In this document: in pieces, positions 7,304 to 45,798 of the stretch
Layout: every line of letters starts with the position of its first letter
Numbering within the stretch: position 1 is the stretch's first letter
Origin: a virus
Length of the DNA: 64,000 nt
Direction: 5' to 3' (one strand)
IMG/VR virus record: IMGVR_UViG_3300009594_000003
Span: 1-64,000 of that record
Position numbers and translations under genes: made by a program
The notes under the pieces: generated by a model
Database searches by the model: none
What the model was told of the DNA's origin: nothing
What the model saw: only the letters and a program-made list of their open reading frames with translations

Positions 7304-7636
7304 GTGGGGAAAGATATGACTATCATTATTCCTGGCGAACCAACTCCTGAAGAAAATACCCCGCTTCACCCCGATGGGAAACCGATGTTGCGTTTCGAGG
7401 TAAAAATGCGGAGACACAAGGGCGGTATCCAGAAGGCTATCTTCATAGGTGGCGAGATGCTCGACTGGTCCGTAGATGTGTCGCAAATGATGGACGCTAT
7501 GAACATGGGTCTGGCGTTCTACAGGGCCGTGCAACGTGATATAGAAAAACATTTCGTAGAAAGCGTGAGTGAATTCATTGGTAGGAAAGTGACTCCAGAG
7601 GACATCAAGAAAGCTATCAAAGAAGGGTGGATTTAA
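7304..7636 (+). CDS. Hypothetical protein
   Basis: 110-aa ORF coupled by TAATG to the next gene. Confidence 0.65.
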   Translation: MGKDMTIIIPGEPTPEENTPLHPDGKPMLRFEVKMRRHKGGIQKAIFIGGEMLDWSVDVSQMMDAMNMGLAFYRAVQRDIEKHFVESVSEFIGRKVTPEDIKKAIKEGWI

Positions 7637-8898
7637 TGGACGCAAATCGAGTACATGATATCCTGTCGAAGAAAATCTGTTACCATCCAGAAGCGATAGT
7701 GATTGACCAAGACCTCAGTATAGGTTCTTGGCTCTTCGATCTAAGAGATGGTACGGAGTACCTCGATCTGTTTTCTCAATTTGCCAGTCAGCCATTGGGC
7801 TGGAACCACCCAAAACTACTCGCACAACAGGACCGTCTGGGCAGGGCAGCACTCTACAAAATCGCCAACCCCGACATGTACTCTGTAGAACTAGCACAGT
7901 TTGTCGAGGCGTGGTCCTCGATCACACCAGACTTTGACCATCATTTTTTCATCGACACTGGCACCTTGGCGGTCGAGAATGCCCTGAAAGCAGCATTCGA
8001 TTGGAAAGCTCAATTGATGGGACTTAAGCAAGATTCTGCGGCTGACGAACTTCAAGTTATTCACTTCACCCAGGCTTTTCACGGCAGGAGTGGTTATACA
8101 CTATCTCTTACGAACAACATACACAACCCCCTCAAAACTAAGTTCTTTCCCAAGTGGCAAACATGGCCGAGAATCGGGGCACCCAGAGTAATCGAACACA
8201 ATTTACGAGAAACCGAGCGACTAGAAGGCATCGCACTAGATGATATCCGCTGGCATCTGGCTGGTGGTAAAATGGCAGCTATCATCATAGAGACCATTCA
8301 AGGCGAAGGCGGCGACAACCATTTCAGAGGCGAATTCTTACGAGAACTTCGGACCCTAGCAAGCGACAACGAGGCTATGCTGATCTTTGACGAAGTACAA
8401 TGTGGCATCGGGCTAACCGGCAAGATGTGGGCATACGAGCATTTCGATGTAGTACCAGACATCATTGCTTTTGGAAAGAAATCTCAGGTTTGCGGTATAT
8501 CTTCCACAAGTAGAATTGATCTAGTAATTGACAACGTATTCGAGAATCCGTCTAGAATCAATTCTACCTGGGGAGGTAATACGGTAGACATGGTTAGGGC
8601 AACCATCCTGATAGAAATCATCAAGGAGGAAAATCTAGTTCAGAATGCGGCCTTGGTGGGATCGTACTTCCTAGAAAAGCTCAAAACGTTAGGATTCGAG
8701 AATACTAGAGGCCGAGGTTTAATGATAGCTTTCGATGTGAAAGACAAACCAGAACGAGATGCCTTGATCCATAGGATGAAACAAAATAGAATACTTGCAT
8801 TAGCTTGTGGTGGTAGATCAATCCGGTTTAGACCACATCTAACATTCTCGCAACAAGATGCTGATGAAGCCGTAGAGAGGATCAGGAAGTCTATATGA
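7636..8898 (+). CDS. lat: L-lysine 6-transaminase (class III PLP aminotransferase)
   Basis: YLDLFSQFASQPLG.NHP, AVENALKAAFDWK, AFHGRSGYTLSLT, IQGEGGDNHF, FDEVQ, FGKK, SRINSTWGG. Confidence 0.88.
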   Translation: MDANRVHDILSKKICYHPEAIVIDQDLSIGSWLFDLRDGTEYLDLFSQFASQPLGWNHPKLLAQQDRLGRAALYKIANPDMYSVELAQFVEAWSSITPDFDHHFFIDTGTLAVENALKAAFDWKAQLMGLKQDSAADELQVIHFTQAFHGRSGYTLSLTNNIHNPLKTKFFPKWQTWPRIGAPRVIEHNLRETERLEGIALDDIRWHLAGGKMAAIIIETIQGEGGDNHFRGEFLRELRTLASDNEAMLIFDEVQCGIGLTGKMWAYEHFDVVPDIIAFGKKSQVCGISSTSRIDLVIDNVFENPSRINSTWGGNTVDMVRATILIEIIKEENLVQNAALVGSYFLEKLKTLGFENTRGRGLMIAFDVKDKPERDALIHRMKQNRILALACGGRSIRFRPHLTFSQQDADEAVERIRKSI

Positions 8899-9148
8899 AC
8901 AGAAGGTCGTTTCTAAAAAGTGTTGCTGGTCTACGGCGGCTGTCGCCGTACCTGTGGCTACTGTATCGGCATTAGCCAATCCAGTAGTGGTTGAGAACCG
9001 CAGACTGAAAGCAAGATGGTCGATGGAAGCTGCTCAGGACTTGCGTGCCATGCACAATCTAGCCGCCGAGGGAGAACTTTGCGAAATCATGTCCAAAGCA
9101 ATCAACGAAGAAATAGATCGAGAGATCATGCGGTCCCTAGCTGCCTAA
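8895..9148 (+). pseudogene. Tat-signal mini-protein carrying a T4 gp23 major-capsid motif (one frameshift)
   Basis: MNRRSFLKSVAGL from 8895, then a shifted frame AAVAVPVATVSALANP..RRLKARWSMEAAQDLRAMHNLAAEGEL.EIMS..I.EEIDREI. Confidence 0.65.
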
Positions 9149-9150
9149 AA

Positions 9151-9179
9151 CAAAAGCCCGCCTTACGGCGGGCTTTTTC
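9151..9179. terminator. Bidirectional terminator between convergent genes
   Basis: AAAAGCCCGCC-TTAC-GGCGGGCTTTTT. Confidence 0.85.
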
Positions 9180-9180
9180 A

Positions 9181-10194
9181 TTACTTGCCAAATACCTTTT
9201 CATATCCATCGAGCCATCCTGTAAACTGCTCGAAGAAGTCTTCGCCCTCGTATTCTGTGTGGGCATTTACTGGGATATTAACGGCTGCTGGGTCTATTGC
9301 AAGCGGTGTTTGCTGACTTTTCGGAGTTTCCTTTTTGAGTCCGAGTTTGACTAGATCAACACCGTTCTTCTCCAGTTTTGCCGATAACTTGGCTATGTCG
9401 CCTTGGAGTTTAGGATCGTTGGCGGCGACCATCTGCTTCAACTCTTCGATCTTGCCTTTGAACTTCTCGGCGGAGGCCGCAGCAGCAAGGGCGGCAGAAC
9501 CACCAAAGTCCTCACCATGCTTGCCAGCCGCAATGGAATCCATCATCTTCTGCAAGGCAGCACCGTAACTGTTGTGGAACTGAGCGGCTTTCATGGCCTG
9601 CATAGCTTGCGTCAGGAAGCCCACAACCGCCTTAATGGGGTCGTCACCGCCGCCTGCATTAGCACCAGCGTTGCCTGGAGTCTGGTCTGGAGGGGTTTGT
9701 GGAGAACCCGGAGGCGTAGCTGCACTTGGATCAGTAGGGGCACCCTCAGCACCACCGTCCCAGCCTTGAGCCAATTCCTTGCCGAATGGTCTGAAGAAGT
9801 TGGCTATGCCGCCTAGTGCATCGCCGAGTTTCTTACGCCCGTATCCGAGCAAACCAGCACCAGCACCAACGGCCTTCCTAGCTCCTCTACCGAACAAGCG
9901 ACCTAACCCACGACGTAGTGACCAGCCCTTTCCGGCGTTGTAGTCATCTCCGACCGTGGCTTCTAGATACAGATCGCCGAGAATTTCTTCTTTCTCAGAC
10001 AAAATCTGTAGAATGGCCTTGTGGGTGTCTGAATCTAGATCGCTACATTCGAGAAGTTCGTATAGTTGGCCCTCGAAAAAATTCCAAGTGAAAATAACTG
10101 GATTGATGTCATTTTCAACGAATACTCTGGCACTTTCCCAGAGCAGAGTATCGTTTTTCCTAAACTCACGATATTCCTTGAATGACTTCATCAC
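9181..10194 (-). CDS. Putative internal head protein (CTS-like N-terminus)
   Basis: starts MKSFKEYRE; Gly/Ala/Pro low-complexity middle. Confidence 0.6.
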   Translation of the reverse strand: MMKSFKEYREFRKNDTLLWESARVFVENDINPVIFTWNFFEGQLYELLECSDLDSDTHKAILQILSEKEEILGDLYLEATVGDDYNAGKGWSLRRGLGRLFGRGARKAVGAGAGLLGYGRKKLGDALGGIANFFRPFGKELAQGWDGGAEGAPTDPSAATPPGSPQTPPDQTPGNAGANAGGGDDPIKAVVGFLTQAMQAMKAAQFHNSYGAALQKMMDSIAAGKHGEDFGGSAALAAAASAEKFKGKIEELKQMVAANDPKLQGDIAKLSAKLEKNGVDLVKLGLKKETPKSQQTPLAIDPAAVNIPVNAHTEYEGEDFFEQFTGWLDGYEKVFGK

Positions 10195-10991
10195 GGTCCC
10201 TTCTTTGGTTTCATTGCCTCTAGCCTTGAGAATACGAATGGTATCACAGGCAATGTTTCACTAGAATCGAATGCATATGATACAGTGTTATTTACACTTT
10301 CATCTAATTTTTTCAGGTCGCTAATAGGAACTGCATAGGACACACCAAAGACCGGGTACATATGACCGTTGACCTTGGCCCCACGAATGCAAAACATAAC
10401 TCCGACCAGTTTATTGTTGTGAAATAAAGGCCCTCCCGAATCCCCTGGAACCGTGTAAACGGAAGTCCGCAGGCAACTCTTGCTTTTGTCGCTTGGCAGC
10501 TTCACTAAAACTCCTGTAACCTTTCCGAAGTCCACACGTAGGTCGTCACCCAAGCCGCCGCCGACTCGAACTACCTCATTACCAATGAACAGCTTCTCCT
10601 CGAAACCCAAATCTACCGTATGCAGCTTCTGATCTGATTCAAAGGCAATAAGTGCCAAATCGATTTTCGGATCAGAAGCAATAACACGGAACTTGAACTT
10701 ATCTTGACCATCGGGCTGCGACCAATTTTTGTACTTGATGACATAAATTGTCGGGCATTCCATGCCTCTTACTACATGGGCACACGTCAAAGCGATGTTG
10801 CGATAGGTATCTTCTGATTTCTCTGATCTCAGCACTACAGCCGTACCACTGCACTCGCTCCCTGGACAATACACCTGGAGGGTCGGGTATAGGCATTTCT
10901 CATGAAGGGTTTTATCGAGTTCCCCACTAGATACCGGAAGTGTAAAGAAAAGAACAAAAGACACAGTAAATAAAGGGATTGAATATTTCAT
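10191..10991 (-). CDS. Secreted trypsin-like (S1) serine protease
   Basis: signal peptide; TCAHVV, DLAL and GDSGGPL triad motifs. Confidence 0.88.
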   Translation of the reverse strand: MKYSIPLFTVSFVLFFTLPVSSGELDKTLHEKCLYPTLQVYCPGSECSGTAVVLRSEKSEDTYRNIALTCAHVVRGMECPTIYVIKYKNWSQPDGQDKFKFRVIASDPKIDLALIAFESDQKLHTVDLGFEEKLFIGNEVVRVGGGLGDDLRVDFGKVTGVLVKLPSDKSKSCLRTSVYTVPGDSGGPLFHNNKLVGVMFCIRGAKVNGHMYPVFGVSYAVPISDLKKLDESVNNTVSYAFDSSETLPVIPFVFSRLEAMKPKKGP

Positions 10992-11009: not shown

Positions 11010-11660
11010 ATGGAGGTCAAAATGTCTTCTAACAACAACGTGCTACTTGCTGTGATAGTAGCTTTGGCTGTCGGTATCTTTGGGGTCTATAAATGGAAGT
11101 CAGCGAAGAATGCCGACCCACAAGACAACTGGCAGCAGTGGAACCCGCAAGATCAAGAATGGCAACAGTGGACCCCACTAGCCATGCCACCAGGGACTCC
11201 ACCCACCGACCCGCCGACCACCCCTCCGGGGAACCCTCTTGGCACTCCCCGCAATTATACCGAAGCTATAAATTTTGCCAAACGCAATAATAAGCAAGTC
11301 TTGCTCGTTTTCGGTGCGGAATGGTGCCAGTGGTGCAAAAAGTTGAAAACCGAAACCTTGGCTAGTGCAGACGTGCAGAGCAAAGTATCGGGCTACGTGT
11401 ACTACTATGTCGATACCGACAAGGAAAAGGAGTTAGCCAGAAAATACAAAGTATCTGGCGTGCCGTACTATGCTATAGTGAATCCTAGCAACGAGTCGGT
11501 AGTTAGGCAGGGAAACGGATTCAAGTCTAATGTAGAATTCATAGCTTGGCTGGAAGGGAGAGACAACCAGCCGAGAAACCAACCTAGGCCGTTGAGGAGA
11601 GATCGGAGTCAGCCTCCGAGCCAACCTCCGAGGACTCAACCGCCTTTGGGTCCAGGCTGA
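11010..11660 (+). CDS. Membrane-anchored thioredoxin-fold protein
   Basis: N-terminal TM helix, FGAEWCQWC, GVPY cis-Pro loop, Pro-rich linkers. Confidence 0.85.
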   Translation: MEVKMSSNNNVLLAVIVALAVGIFGVYKWKSAKNADPQDNWQQWNPQDQEWQQWTPLAMPPGTPPTDPPTTPPGNPLGTPRNYTEAINFAKRNNKQVLLVFGAEWCQWCKKLKTETLASADVQSKVSGYVYYYVDTDKEKELARKYKVSGVPYYAIVNPSNESVVRQGNGFKSNVEFIAWLEGRDNQPRNQPRPLRRDRSQPPSQPPRTQPPLGPG

Positions 11661-17511: not shown

Positions 17512-18501
17512 TTAGTTGATACCATTTTCTGCTTGATATGCTTTGACAGCTTCAACTAGTTTGCGTGGATCAATGATCCCAAATCCCTGGTAGAATGTCG
17601 GGTCTCCTAGAAGTCCGTTCTGAATGTTTGATGTGTTCTTCTTGAAAATCGTCCTGTAGTCTTCTGCCATGTCGAGTTTAATCCTCAGTCCCTTGCTCCT
17701 CTTGTATGACAACACGAGTGCCGCTACACCTACAGCAAACGGACAGGCCATACTGGTTCCCGAAAGGATAGCGTACCAGTTATCAGGAACGGTTGAGAAT
17801 ATCTTGTCTCCCGGTGCCATGAAGTCCAGGTCTTTACCTGTGTTGGAAAACGTGGCCCTCTTCAGTTCCTCGGTGATCGCCCCAATAGCTATGGTTTCCG
17901 GGTACAGAGCCGGATAAAACACGTTCTGTGTTAGTCCTGCGTTACCCGCAGCACAAAATGTAACGACGTTCTTAGATGCGGCGTATTGCAGAGCCTTCTT
18001 GACCTCCTGTGTCGGGCGAGGCGAACCCAGAGACATAGCCAGGATGTCCGCCCCATTATCCACAGCCCAACGTATGCCTTTAGCCACATTTAGCAAGCTG
18101 CCATTGCCATGACGATCTAGCACCTTTACTGGAAGGACTTTGGCCTTTGGTGCTACACCAACCATGCCTATGTCGTTATTGCTTGCTACAATAATACCAG
18201 TGACATGCGTACCATGCTGGTTATCGTCGTCTGGTAGTTTAGCTTCGTTGACGAAATTCTTCCCAGGTAACAGGTTCTCGGCTAGGTCTGGGTGATCCAG
18301 GTCGCAACCGGTGTCTAACACTGCGATGGTTACACCTTCGCCCTGGGTTAGATTCCAGGCGTCGGGCAAGCTGAATGCGGTTATATTCCATCCAACTTTC
18401 TGGCGGGCGTCTTGCAGCGATAGTACCTCCTCGACCTCAAATGGAGGTAATTTGCATTTCTTATCCGTTCGTTGGTTGCTGGTTTTCTTCTTCCGTGCCA
18501 T
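17512..18501 (-). CDS. Subtilisin-like S8 serine protease
   Basis: AVLDTG, HGTHVTG, AAGN, SGTSMACP. Confidence 0.93.
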   Translation of the reverse strand: MARKKKTSNQRTDKKCKLPPFEVEEVLSLQDARQKVGWNITAFSLPDAWNLTQGEGVTIAVLDTGCDLDHPDLAENLLPGKNFVNEAKLPDDDNQHGTHVTGIIVASNNDIGMVGVAPKAKVLPVKVLDRHGNGSLLNVAKGIRWAVDNGADILAMSLGSPRPTQEVKKALQYAASKNVVTFCAAGNAGLTQNVFYPALYPETIAIGAITEELKRATFSNTGKDLDFMAPGDKIFSTVPDNWYAILSGTSMACPFAVGVAALVLSYKRSKGLRIKLDMAEDYRTIFKKNTSNIQNGLLGDPTFYQGFGIIDPRKLVEAVKAYQAENGIN

Positions 18502-45180: not shown

Positions 45181-45798
45181 ATAAGAATCGGACTTCTAGG
45201 CGAGGCCTTTGACCCAATTACCTGTGCCCACATGGACATGGCTAGAGTTGGACTAGAAGTGTTCGATGAAGTCTAGCTCATGCCATGTAATACACATCCT
45301 TGGGACAAAGAAATGGCCCACGGCTCAGACCGTCTTCATATGATTGAGTTGGCGACTCAACACACCCCCAAAATAAAACCGTGCCCCTACGAACTAGAAA
45401 TGGCACCAAGTTCGTACACCTACGATGTGGTGTGGAGCATGAGACATAAGGTGCGGTTCATGCCGATTGAATTCAGCATCATCGTTGGCATGGACAATGC
45501 CAACAAAATCAAGGAGTGGCATCGCTGGCAAGAACTGATCGAAATGATCCCTTTCCTTGTAGTAAAGAGAAGGGGCATCGAACAACAAACTGATTAGTTC
45601 CTGAAAGCTCCTCATATGTTCAAGGACATCGGGACGGTGACGGGCACACTGCAAACCAACTGCCTAGCCGTACCAATTAGTTCAACACTGGTACGGCGAA
45701 CCATCAGAGAGGGCGGCGATGCCCGCCCATTTCTGCACTTGGACGTGTGGAACTACATCGACAAGAAGGGACTCTACAAGAAAGGTCCAGATGAATAA
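45181..45798 (+). pseudogene. nadD: Nicotinate-nucleotide adenylyltransferase with ATA start and two in-frame TAGs
   Basis: single frame IRIGLLGEAFDPIT.AH...FDEV*LMP...R..M..LA...YT...IIVGMD...I.EW..W...TD*F...ISSTLVR...V..YI....LY. Confidence 0.82.

What the first reader, a model, noticed from the sequence alone, without database searches (positions are those of the whole stretch)
8895..9148. Tat signal peptide fused to a fragment of T4-type major capsid protein
Seen: MNRRSFLK (twin-arginine consensus RRxFLK) starts by ATGA overlap with lat. After a 1-nt frameshift near 8933 it continues through a hydrophobic stretch ending ALA into RRLKARWSMEAAQDLRAMHNLAAEGEL..IMS..I.EEIDREI, then a stop and terminator. 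Established: that peptide matches the conserved gp23 segment R.LKA..(T/S).ELAQDL.A.H..DAE.EL..IL..EI..EI.RE. Inference: an exported or membrane-tethered mini-capsid peptide could be a decoy for capsid-sensing immunity, a membrane nucleation point for prohead assembly, or a superinfection-exclusion factor. It could also be a recombination scar.
Basis: partly seen in the sequence, partly recalled or inferred. Interest (0 to 1): 0.7.

Follow-up and report, generated by a model that had tools for sequence, protein, structure and literature searches.

The report
Broken Tat-tagged capsid-fragment phage gene
A very large uncultured phage carries a frameshift-broken copy of a small gene that, in intact relatives, joins a bacterial twin-arginine export signal to a copy of the piece of the head-shell protein that glues neighbouring shell units together; the family seems undescribed and its job is unknown.

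Summary
ATG 8895 (ATGA overlap with a LAT-family aminotransferase) opens MNRRSFLKSVAGL, the frame slips by -1 at 8931-8933, and the second frame gives a hydrophobic stretch ending ALA, a 55-residue match to Pfam Gp23 (E 7e-17; T4 gp23 259-312), a stop and a strong terminator hairpin. It is not a one-off scar. Intact 84-85 aa homologues exist (P0003, 80% identical; P0004 in a complete 527-kb phage). In a search of 1.84 billion cluster representatives, 33 of the best 150 hits are 68-146 aa proteins with an RR leader, a hydrophobic region and the same gp23 segment. None of the 48 hits of 200 aa or more has the leader. The copied segment is the P-domain strand, short acidic helix and spine helix, which in T4 make capsomer-capsomer contacts and hold head-length and gp31-bypass mutations. 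The complete phage with an intact copy also encodes TatA. The window's copy is broken: a 380x contig from a second assembler is identical and the junction has no slippery site. The function is inferred only: a Tat-routed mimic of the capsomer contact element. This scan has noted the same family on other DNA (at least 12 genomes). I found no paper describing it.

The parts
7627..8898 (+). Upstream gene, translationally coupled (ATGA overlap): class-III aminotransferase of the L-lysine 6-transaminase family. Context only.
   Evidence: ORF; PF00202 E 7.7e-83; TIGR03251 502.6 bits against a cut-off of 520.8.
8884..8889 (+). Shine-Dalgarno-like AGGAAG, 5 nt before ATG 8895.
   Evidence: Read directly from the sequence; not tested.
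8895..8932 (+). Frame-0 part of the broken gene: MNRRSFLKSVAG(L). This is the twin-arginine n-region and the start of the h-region.
   Evidence: It aligns to residues 1-12 of the intact P0003. PF10518 TAT_signal gives 16.4 bits, E 0.0087, below the cut-off of 22.7, for the 26-aa product.
8931..8933 (+). Frame-break junction: one base missing relative to intact relatives. It lies at the foot of a perfect 7-bp hairpin (8932-8950).
   Evidence: Frame 0 matches relatives up to here and frame -1 matches them from here. Hairpin. The Logan contig is identical with 0 gaps.
8895..8975 (+). The 26-aa ORF that ordinary translation from the ATG would give (stop TAG 8973-8975).
8933..9148 (+). The -1-frame part: the rest of the h-region (TAAVAVPVATVSALA), a linker, the gp23-derived module and the stop codon.
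8954..9148 (+). The 64-aa GTG ORF that gene callers report (identical to P0002). It has no leader, and reading the sequence shows no Shine-Dalgarno motif before it.
8960..9145 (+). Segment homologous to the T4-type major capsid protein (P-domain strand, short acidic helix, spine helix; T4 gp23 259-312).
   Evidence: PF07068; PDB phmmer; hhalign of the family alignment against T4 gp23, probability 97.9, E 6.4e-13.
9152..9177 (.). Intrinsic-terminator hairpin (A-tract, 11-bp stem, U-tract) between convergent genes.
   Evidence: -19.8 kcal/mol, z -6.65, and 0 of 200 shuffles fold as well.

Best explanation
Window 8895-9148 is a frame-broken copy of a gene from a conserved and apparently undescribed family of small (about 70-145 aa) proteins of large T4-type phages.

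Architecture (shown). An intact member starts with a near-consensus twin-arginine leader (M-N-R-R-x-F-L-K), followed by an Ala/Val/Gly-rich h-region that usually ends in Pro. A short linker, often rich in Pro and Lys, comes next. The protein ends with a copy of one segment of the major capsid protein: the P-domain strand RKLKAxW, the short acidic helix and the spine helix.

Mechanism (inferred). The leader takes the protein to the host Tat machinery at the inner membrane, for export or as an uncleaved anchor. The one complete phage genome with an intact copy supplies its own TatA. The capsid-derived part keeps the same conserved residues as real capsid proteins. It covers the element that in T4 makes capsomer-to-capsomer contacts at the quasi-threefold axes. 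It therefore most likely acts as a mimic of that contact element, binding something that normally recognises it (the capsid protein itself, or a host factor) and coupling that partner to the membrane or to export.

This copy (shown). One base is missing at 8931-8933. Ordinary translation therefore gives only a 26-aa leader peptide, so this copy is most likely an inactivated allele.

Odds. The family and architecture are real: about 0.9. This copy is truly broken and not recoded: about 0.75. The leader is a working Tat signal: about 0.65. The module acts as a contact-element mimic: about 0.3.
For: Architecture in relatives. P0003 (85 aa, 80% identical to the window's 64-aa ORF) and P0004 (identical to L006:4001-4252, 84 aa, 44% identical to P0003) are intact single ORFs with MNRRSFLK, an h-region and the gp23 segment.

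Size of the family. A profile search of 1.84 billion 50%-identity cluster representatives gave 1747 hits at E<=1e-3. Of the best 150:
- 33 are 68-146 aa proteins with an RR motif and a hydrophobic region before the gp23 segment; 31 of these 33 fit RRxF[LFI][KRQG];
- 1 has RK in place of RR;
- 3 start inside the h-region;
- 0 of the 48 hits of 200 aa or more has such a leader.

Conservation. In the 32-sequence alignment, R3 and D51 are invariant, and R4, F6, W44, E47, L52, H56, E61, E75 and I76 are at least 90% conserved.

Tat models. P0003 passes TIGR01409 (21.1 bits against a cut-off of 16.7). P0004 scores 19.8 bits on PF10518 (E 7e-4, below the cut-off of 22.7).

Same constraints as real capsid proteins. 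Per-column entropy over 49 core columns correlates between 35 distinct leader-bearing minis and 45 distinct full-length capsid proteins (Spearman 0.71, p 1.3e-8).

Mapping onto T4. The module aligns to gp23 259-312. Passages of Fang et al. 2022 (PMC9546572) place several features there: the short negatively charged P-domain helix that contacts neighbouring capsomers, the head-length mutations A268V, A275T, D285V and D287V/N, and the gp31-bypass residues G292, V306 and V307 of the spine helix. I checked this numbering on the T4 record. Some members add further gp23 pieces that match T4 ~97-130 or ~447-461, the other two head-length clusters.

TatA. The complete 527-kb phage G001 encodes a TatA/B/E protein (PF02416, 45.9 bits against a cut-off of 21). 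None of 5 other large T4-type phage records without a leader-bearing mini has one.

The break. A 36,295-nt Logan contig at depth 380 is identical over 8600-9400, with no indel. The same 64-aa truncated ORF is on record from a 463,644-bp contig. Frame 0 follows the relatives right up to the junction, where the sequence GGU CUA CGG offers no X XXY YYZ slippery site.

Fold. The AlphaFold2 model of P0003 has a leader helix at 3-30, a short helix at 46-55 and a long helix at 58-84, with mean pLDDT 83.8.
Against: - No experiment and no expression data bear on any member.
- Tat dependence rests on motif and profile matches only. The window's own 26-aa product and P0004 fall below the curated Tat cut-offs.
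- A signal-peptidase site is clear in the window (ALA) but not in P0004 or several others (read).
- If the protein is exported, its capsid-like part faces the periplasm, where no capsid protein is known to be. The mimic idea then needs either a pre-export (cytoplasmic-face) role or an unknown periplasmic partner.
- Conserved residues may be kept only for the module's own fold.
- The entropy comparison uses two sets that were both picked by one profile, so it is biased toward agreement.
- The 49-column tree does not resolve whether the minis have one origin or many: 19 label changes, and starred branches force at least 3.
- The TatA link rests on one complete genome. The window's record (17% complete) has no TatA, and neither record has TatC.
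- The run behind the Logan contig may be the sample the window was assembled from, so it is not independent proof of the break.
- The family is rare in the collections I could scan by pattern: 1 record in IMG/VR besides the window's own, and 0 in 185,579 species genomes. Context is therefore known for two loci only, and they share no synteny.
Confidence: 0.6

Rival explanations
1. The window's gene is intact in function: a -1 ribosomal frameshift (or slippage on the A5 run 8915-8919) joins the two frames and the full leader + gp23 product is made.
For: There is an A-run (CUA AAA AGU) 12 nt upstream of a perfect 7-bp GC-rich hairpin at 8932-8950. A slip there would still give a hydrophobic leader. 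The -1 frame is open back to 8879.
Against: The heptamer is not X XXY YYZ: the AGU codon could not re-pair in the -1 frame. Frame 0 keeps matching the relatives (SVAGL against SIAGL) for five codons after the A-run, so the ancestral frame changes at 8931-8933, where nothing is slippery. The fold of 8905-9000 is not unusual (z -1.65, 8 of 200 shuffles fold as well). Intact relatives need no shift.
Confidence: 0.07
2. The break is an assembly or sequencing error, or a minority or sample-specific variant, and the phage population carries an intact 84-aa gene.
For: Only contigs could be laid, not raw reads, and contigs drop rare variants. The one run found may be the window's own source.
Against: Two assemblers agree at depth 380 with 0 differences and 0 gaps. 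The site is not a homopolymer. The truncated 64-aa ORF is also on record from a 463,644-bp contig. The same genome has another conserved gene with two in-frame TAGs.
Confidence: 0.08
3. The leaderless 64-aa ORF from GTG 8954 is the real product and works in the cytoplasm, like the many leaderless small gp23-fragment proteins.
For: Sixty-five of the best 150 representatives are small proteins with the gp23 segment but no leader. Eleven of those share a conserved basic + R-S-I-D-D-x-W tail, so leaderless minis are a real class. Gene callers do call the 64-aa ORF.
Against: No Shine-Dalgarno motif precedes GTG 8954, and it lies inside the leader's h-region. The sequence upstream is plainly the remnant of a leader, 80% identical in architecture to P0003. 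The window ORF lacks the tail motif of the leaderless class.
Confidence: 0.1
4. The N-terminal RR + hydrophobic region is not a Tat signal. It is instead a Sec/YidC-type signal-anchor or another targeting or oligomerisation element, and the protein is simply a small membrane protein.
For: Scores against Tat models are modest, with only P0003 over a curated cut-off. The n-region is only two residues long. Several members lack an A-x-A site.
Against: R3 is invariant, and R4 and F6 are at least 90% conserved. Thirty-one of 33 members fit RRxF[LFI][KRQG]. The h-region is weakly hydrophobic (Ala/Gly/Val), with basic residues after it, as in Tat leaders. G001 encodes TatA. A second TatA-bearing phage record carries another RR-leader protein.
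Confidence: 0.12
5. The fusion is a neutral recombination scar, a stray capsid-gene piece that landed behind a leader, with no function in any phage.
For: This copy is broken, sits among metabolic genes far from any head gene, and the two known loci share no synteny.
Against: There are 33 distinct 50%-identity clusters with the same two-part architecture, with mean pairwise identity 0.485 in the core. The leader motif and the same capsid residues are still conserved, and the ORFs are open. In the complete G001 the gene is intact beside a full-length capsid gene elsewhere in the genome.
Confidence: 0.03

Closest known systems
T4-type major capsid protein gp23 and vertex protein gp24 (Pfam PF07068, HK97 fold; PDB 6UZC, 5VF3, 8T9R)
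   Same: The module is homologous to gp23 259-312 (E 6.8e-17 to the Pfam model; hhalign probability 97.9). It keeps the residues that are invariant in full-length capsid proteins: W, E, QD, H, E and EID-E.
   Different: It covers only about 60 of 376 profile positions. It has no N-arm, E-loop, A-domain or P-domain sheet, so it cannot form a capsomer. It has an export-type leader that none of the 48 longer hits has. The gene lies far from head genes.
Bacterial twin-arginine (Tat) signal peptides (TIGR01409, PF10518), including uncleaved Tat signal-anchors and hitchhiker cargo (the last two recalled, not looked up)
   Same: Consensus RRxFLK, a weakly hydrophobic h-region, a Pro and basic residues after it, and A-L-A in the window's copy.
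   Different: The passenger is a roughly 55-residue piece of a virion protein with no cofactor. It is encoded by a phage, and one such phage brings its own TatA. In the 2026 Tat review PMC13673990 I looked only at the passages around 'phage' (4 occurrences; 'virus' and 'viral' occur 0 times). None of them concerns phage-encoded Tat genes or cargo.
Gol region of T4 gp23 with the Lit protease of prophage e14
   Same: It is a precedent that a short, highly conserved piece of gp23 has a biological activity of its own: it binds EF-Tu and triggers Lit (passages of PMC3014915).
   Different: Gol lies in the first quarter of gp23, whereas this module is 259-312. Only some other family members (P0041, P0101) carry a piece from the Gol-side region. 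Gol is part of the capsid protein, not a separate gene with a leader.
Small exported proteins of T4 (Spackle, antiholin RI). Their roles are recalled; for PMC8385771 I saw only the search listing
   Same: They are phage-encoded, under 100 aa, carry an N-terminal signal, are largely helical, and act in the periplasm.
   Different: They use Sec-type signals and are not derived from virion proteins. No sequence relation was tested.

Membership tests
Pfam Gp23 (PF07068), T4-type major capsid protein | Significant match to the family model above the gathering score | tested here: met
   62.4 bits against a cut-off of 24.4, E 6.8e-17; 59.3 bits in the six-frame genome search.
Pfam Gp23 (PF07068), T4-type major capsid protein | Complete HK97-type fold (N-arm, E-loop, P-domain sheet, A-domain), covering most of the model | tested here: not met
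   The match covers only profile positions 135-194 of 376. The product is at most about 84 aa. The AlphaFold2 model of the relative P0003 has three helices and no sheet.
Twin-arginine signal peptide (TIGR01409 / PF10518) | Twin-arginine motif (S/T)-R-R-x-F-L-K near the N-terminus | tested here: met
   MNRRSFLK at 8895-8918. R3 is invariant and R4 and F6 are at least 90% conserved across 32 members.
Twin-arginine signal peptide (TIGR01409 / PF10518) | Score above the curated cut-off of a Tat signal model | tested here: inconclusive
   Window 26-aa product: PF10518 16.4 bits, under 22.7, and no TIGR01409 hit. Relative P0003: TIGR01409 21.1 bits, over 16.7. Relative P0004: PF10518 19.8 bits, under 22.7.
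Twin-arginine signal peptide (TIGR01409 / PF10518) | n-, h- and c-regions and the passenger in one reading frame | tested here: not met
   The frame breaks at 8931-8933 and frame 0 stops at 8973. This feature is met in P0003 and P0004.
Twin-arginine signal peptide (TIGR01409 / PF10518) | Export depends on TatABC and on the RR pair | not testable with these tools
   There is no experiment. The only indirect evidence is that G001 encodes TatA.
Leader + virion-fragment mini-protein family (undescribed; defined here and in earlier notes of this scan) | One small ORF with an RR leader followed by a conserved piece of the major capsid protein | tested here: not met
   The window copy is split over two frames. 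It is a broken member by descent, 80% identical to the intact P0003. Thirty-three intact clusters are among the 150 best representatives.
Programmed -1 ribosomal frameshift site | Slippery heptamer X XXY YYZ at the frame junction with a downstream structure 5-9 nt away | tested here: not met
   The junction reads GGU CUA CGG. The nearest A-run (CUA AAA AGU) is not a canonical heptamer and lies 12 nt before the hairpin. The fold has z -1.65.

The most novel reading that the evidence does not exclude
Large T4-type phages run an export-tagged mimic system. Small proteins carry the capsomer-contact element of the head protein (in other members, other conserved virion pieces) behind a Tat leader, helped by a phage-encoded TatA. 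They capture whatever recognises that element, either a host sensor of capsid protein or surplus capsid subunits. They then drag it to, or jam it at, the Tat translocon. This removes the partner from the cytoplasm or tethers head assembly to the membrane. The broken copy in this window would then be a natural loss-of-function allele, which could show what the gene costs or buys.
Probability: 0.2. Interest if true: 0.85.

Novelty: new variant of a known kind. Interest (0 to 1): 0.6.

Why it matters
Capsid proteins are the phage parts that several bacterial immune systems sense, and in T4-type phages the head assembles on the inner membrane. A conserved gene family couples a textbook export signal to exactly the capsid segment that sets capsomer contacts, head length and chaperonin dependence in T4. 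Such a family would be a new kind of phage accessory function, whichever reading holds: decoy, membrane tether, assembly regulator or exclusion factor. It is also directly testable, because intact members are short, T4 genetics of the copied segment is rich, and Tat export assays are routine. Phage-encoded TatA together with phage-encoded Tat cargo would extend the known reach of phage control over host secretion. This window adds a natural broken allele, a link to TatA in a complete genome, and the mapping onto the T4 mutation clusters.

Tried and rejected
No codon-level test was therefore possible.

I used degenerate DNA patterns instead. These found only G001 in the viral collection and nothing in 185,579 species genomes. 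A tblastn of P0003 against 50,697 GenBank phage records hit 2155 records, all at query residues 28-85 (the capsid gene) among the 40 rows shown. None covered 80% or more of the query. A look-up of 10 family members showed singletons or pairs on contigs of 628-20,410 bp, unnamed or labelled 'hypothetical protein'.

Binding to the capsid protein. One complex-prediction job (G001 capsid protein with residues 20-84 of P0004) ended with no verdict, score 0.00. It counts neither for nor against binding.

Fold search. Foldseek of the P0003 model against the PDB gave no match at E<=0.001. The ESM Atlas gave no usable hit.

Expression. No RNA holder was listed for the stretch.

Promoters. The T4 late-promoter motif TATAAATA has 0 matches in the window (0.84 expected). 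Sigma-70-like sites were not more frequent than in shuffles (5 against 3.5).

Rejected idea: relation to T4 prohead core protein gp67. I recalled an old claim of gp67-gp23 similarity, but hhalign gave probability 0.3.

Rejected idea: the module is the Gol peptide. Gol lies in the first quarter of gp23, whereas the module is 259-312.

Rejected idea: stop-codon recoding rescues the gene. Frame 0 meets TAG, TAG and then TGA, and it is not gp23-like.

Origin of the minis. The 49-column FastTree is mostly unresolved (89 of 156 inner branches open). It shows only a starred set of 73 rows rich in small proteins (37 leaderless, 25 with leader, 4 capsid proteins). I draw no conclusion from it on one or many origins. 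P0004 is 56.6% identical to its own phage's capsid protein over 53 residues, no closer than other minis are to that protein. There is thus no sign of recent copying or co-evolution.

TatC. None was found in G000 or G001.

Second RR-leader mini-protein of G001 (63 aa, Cys-rich). It has no paralogue in that genome.

Papers. Searches found nothing on Tat leaders on phage capsid pieces or on phage-encoded TatA. I saw passages only of PMC9546572, PMC9958956, PMC9026906, PMC3014915 and PMC13673990, and search listings only for the rest. Supplements were closed, and SI Fig. S5 of PMC9546572, which maps the T4 mutations, was not seen.
Full report
WHAT IS THERE. The window is the first 64 kb of an 85,651-bp viral record that CheckV rates 17% complete, so it is a piece of a very large phage. 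At 8895 an ATG overlaps the stop of a 423-aa LAT-family aminotransferase (ATGA). It opens MNRRSFLKSVAGL. This frame then runs into unrelated residues and a TAG at 8973, giving a 26-aa ORF. The -1 frame is open from 8879. It reads ..TAAVAVPVATVSALANPVVVENRRLKARWSMEAAQDLRAMHNLAAEGELCEIMSKAINEEIDREIMRSLAA and stops at 9146. An 11-bp hairpin with flanking A and U tracts follows at 9152-9177 (-19.8 kcal/mol, z -6.65), facing a convergent gene. The second frame matches Pfam Gp23 at E 6.8e-17 (62 bits against a cut-off of 24.4, positions 135-194 of 376) and phrog_138 'major head protein'. It also matches T4 gp23 residues 259-307 among solved structures. No full-length capsid gene lies in the record.

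THE FUSION IS A GENE FAMILY. A word-indexed search with the 64-aa ORF found P0003, 85 aa and 80% identical. P0003 is a single open frame: MNRRSFLK, an h-region, NPVVVEN and the gp23 segment. A scan of viral contigs with P0003 found an intact 84-aa ORF at 44% identity in a 527,112-bp record rated 100% complete (G001; L006:4001-4252). The same protein (P0004) is also on record from another source. I then searched a profile of these three against 1.84 billion cluster representatives with no length limit. This gave 1747 hits at E<=1e-3. I classified the 150 best by script:
- 33 are 68-146 aa proteins with an RR motif in the first 30 residues and a hydrophobic window before the gp23 segment. Of these, 31 fit RRxF[LFI][KRQG].
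- 1 has RK.
- 3 begin inside the h-region.
- 65 are other small proteins.
- 28 are 200-399 aa and 20 are 400 aa or more.
- None of the 48 proteins of 200 aa or more has such a leader.
Each representative stands for a different 50%-identity cluster. In the 32-sequence alignment R3 and D51 are invariant, and R4, F6, W44, E47, L52, H56, E61, E75 and I76 are at least 90% conserved. P0003 passes the curated cut-off of TIGR01409 (21.1 against 16.7). P0004 and the window's stub fall short of PF10518 (19.8 and 16.4 against 22.7). The family members I looked up are unnamed or 'hypothetical protein'.

WHAT PIECE OF THE CAPSID PROTEIN IT IS. The family profile aligns to T4 gp23 259-312 (hhalign probability 97.9, E 6.4e-13). 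The AlphaFold2 model of P0003 has a leader helix, an extended stretch, a short helix (46-55) and a long helix (58-84), with mean pLDDT 83.8. Passages of Fang et al. 2022 (PMC9546572) describe this region of T4. Neighbouring capsomers are held near the quasi-threefold axes by charge contacts between the short, negatively charged P-domain helix and basic P-domain strands. The head-length mutations A268V, A275T, D285V and D287V/N cluster beside that helix. [quoted passage not shown] I checked these residue numbers on the T4 record. The mini-proteins therefore copy the strand, the short acidic helix and the spine helix. Some members add, sometimes in permuted order, pieces matching the capsid regions that correspond to T4 ~97-130 (P0041, P0101) or ~447-461 (P0007, P0099, P0037, P0034). 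Those regions hold the other two T4 head-length clusters named in the same paper: G97; and A455, T457, R460 and G461. Column by column, the minis conserve the same positions as full-length capsid proteins (Spearman 0.71 over 49 columns). Both sets were chosen by one profile, which inflates that agreement. The minis are as far from each other (mean identity 0.485) as from capsid proteins (0.505). The short tree cannot tell one origin from several.

THE WINDOW'S COPY IS BROKEN. Frame 0 follows the relatives through K-S-V-A-G-L (P0006: K-S-I-A-G-L). The -1 frame follows them from T-A-A-V-A-V-P (P0006: V-A-A-A-V-A-V-P). The change of frame is thus pinned to 8931-8933, where one base is missing. 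There is no slippery heptamer there. The nearest A-run is five codons upstream and is not X XXY YYZ. The local fold is not exceptional (z -1.65), although a perfect 7-bp hairpin sits exactly on the junction. A contig made by a different assembler from the one public run that holds the stretch is identical over 8600-9400, at depth 380. That run may be the window's own source. The same truncated 64-aa ORF is on record from a 463,644-bp contig. GTG 8954 has no visible ribosome-binding site. I conclude that this allele makes only a 26-aa leader stub and is most likely inactive. Another conserved gene of this genome, nadD-like at 45181-45798, has two in-frame TAGs. The genome therefore carries several lesions or uses an odd code, but recoding TAG would not mend the frame here.

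A LINK TO THE TAT MACHINE. The strict start pattern M-x-R-R-x-F-L-K occurs once in the window's record and once in G001, each time at this gene. A looser pattern adds one more small RR-leader ORF in G001, 63 aa and Cys-rich. G001 also encodes a clear TatA/B/E protein (PF02416, 45.9 bits against a cut-off of 21; a 71-aa ORF) but no TatC. Five other large (251-350 kb) phage records with T4-type capsid genes but no leader-bearing mini have no TatA (0 of 5). Relatives of the G001 TatA lie in two more viral records. One of these carries a 317-aa protein that starts MKRRDFIK. The window's record has no TatA, but five sixths of that genome are missing. The numbers are small. They still fit a phage that both supplies cargo for the host Tat system and boosts that system.

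HOW IT MOST LIKELY WORKS. The two-part architecture, its conservation, and the identity of the copied capsid element are shown. The rest is inferred. The leader should bring the protein to TatBC at the inner membrane, and then either across it or into it as an N-in anchor. The module keeps capsid-like constraints, which suggests it still meets a partner that reads the capsomer-contact surface. The difficulty is topology: after export the module faces the periplasm, where no capsid protein is expected. Three readings remain:
- (a) It acts before or without transport. It holds capsid subunits or a capsid-sensing host factor at the translocon, as a tether or a jam. T4-type heads do assemble on the inner membrane (passages of PMC9958956 and PMC9026906).
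- (b) It carries a bound partner out, as hitchhiker cargo does (recalled).
- (c) It has a periplasmic target unrelated to capsids, and the conserved residues serve only its own fold.
I put reading (a) or (b) together at about 0.3. The one complex prediction gave no verdict and is not evidence either way.

COMPARISON AND NOVELTY. The module belongs to the gp23 family by homology, but the protein is not a capsid protein because it lacks most of the fold. The leader looks like a Tat signal, but export is untested. The Gol peptide shows that a short gp23 piece can act alone, but it is a different piece. T4 gp67 is unrelated. Four literature searches found no description of leader-tagged capsid fragments or of phage tatA. 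In the 2026 Tat review I looked only at the passages around 'phage', and they did not mention either. GenBank phages hold no close copy. Earlier notes of this scan report the same design in at least 12 other genomes, with other virion pieces and with phage TatA in some. A later check priced the 'exported decoy' reading at about one in three. These are unchecked AI notes. My own searches reached the family and the TatA link independently before I read them. I rate it a new variant of known kinds (capsid-protein paralogues; Tat cargo). It is interesting at family level, while this particular copy is a broken member.

Noticed in passing
L004 and L005, 3923-4273 (+); proteins P0005, P0022, P0024, P0025, P0026, P0029, P0050, P0061, P0067, P0071, P0105, P0110: A second class of small proteins carries the same gp23 segment without a leader. 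These end in a conserved tail: a Lys/Arg run followed by (Y)-R-S-I-D-D-x-W-E. By regular expression, 11 of the 65 leaderless small hits have it (P0005 has it by eye). It looks like a docking motif for an unknown partner.
   Followed up: partly
L065 1477-1692 (-) in G001; relatives L067 3001-3195 and L068 3001-3132: There is a phage-encoded TatA in the complete 527-kb phage that has the intact mini-protein, and relatives in two other viral records. None of 5 other large T4-type phage records has one.
   Followed up: partly
L070 565-1518 (-) in G008: A 317-aa protein starting MKRRDFIK, with no Pfam or NCBIfam family, lies in a 75-kb phage record that also has a TatA relative. It may be a second kind of phage Tat cargo.
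   Followed up: no
L071 1432-1620 (-) in G001: A second small RR-leader ORF (MKRRSFL.., 63 aa, Cys-rich) lies about 10 kb from the phage tatA. It has no paralogue in that genome.
   Followed up: partly
proteins P0041, P0101, P0007, P0099, P0037, P0034: Some minis are collages of several conserved gp23 pieces (spine segment plus the PLVRR..VSVQPM piece or the GYFYxPYVPL piece), sometimes in permuted order, and with or without a leader.
   Followed up: partly
window 9137-9145 and the C-termini of 38 family members: C-termini are apolar. Ten of 38 end in Ala-Ala (the window's copy ends LAA, like the last three residues of the ssrA tag, which is recalled). Twenty-nine of 38 end in A, V, I or L. 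This could be a protease or PDZ recognition signal, or simply shared ancestry.
   Followed up: partly
window 8932-8950: A perfect 7-bp GC-rich inverted repeat (UACGGCG..CGCCGUA) sits exactly on the frame-break junction. It may have favoured the deletion.
   Followed up: partly
It is either a broken gene or TAG recoding.
   Followed up: partly
window 10191-10991 (-), 11010-11660 (+), 17512-18501 (-): Envelope-directed genes lie near the finding: a trypsin-like peptidase with a Sec-type signal, a membrane-anchored thioredoxin with CxxC, and a subtilase. They sit among metabolic genes (IMPDH/GMP reductase family, Glu/Leu/Phe/Val dehydrogenase, Dam-type methylase).
   Followed up: no
L050 1911-2312, L051 4001-4231, L052 4001-, L053 4001-, L057 521-: Other phage and metagenome contigs encode small proteins that start with the same MNRRSFLK leader but continue into unrelated sequences.
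   Followed up: no
L059 1099-2037 (+) in G001; L069 in G007: A 312-aa gp23-like protein (Pfam positions 178-347) lacks the large middle insertion of the 491-aa capsid protein. It may be the vertex protein. A similar 323-aa frame lies in the TatA-bearing fragment G007.
   Followed up: no
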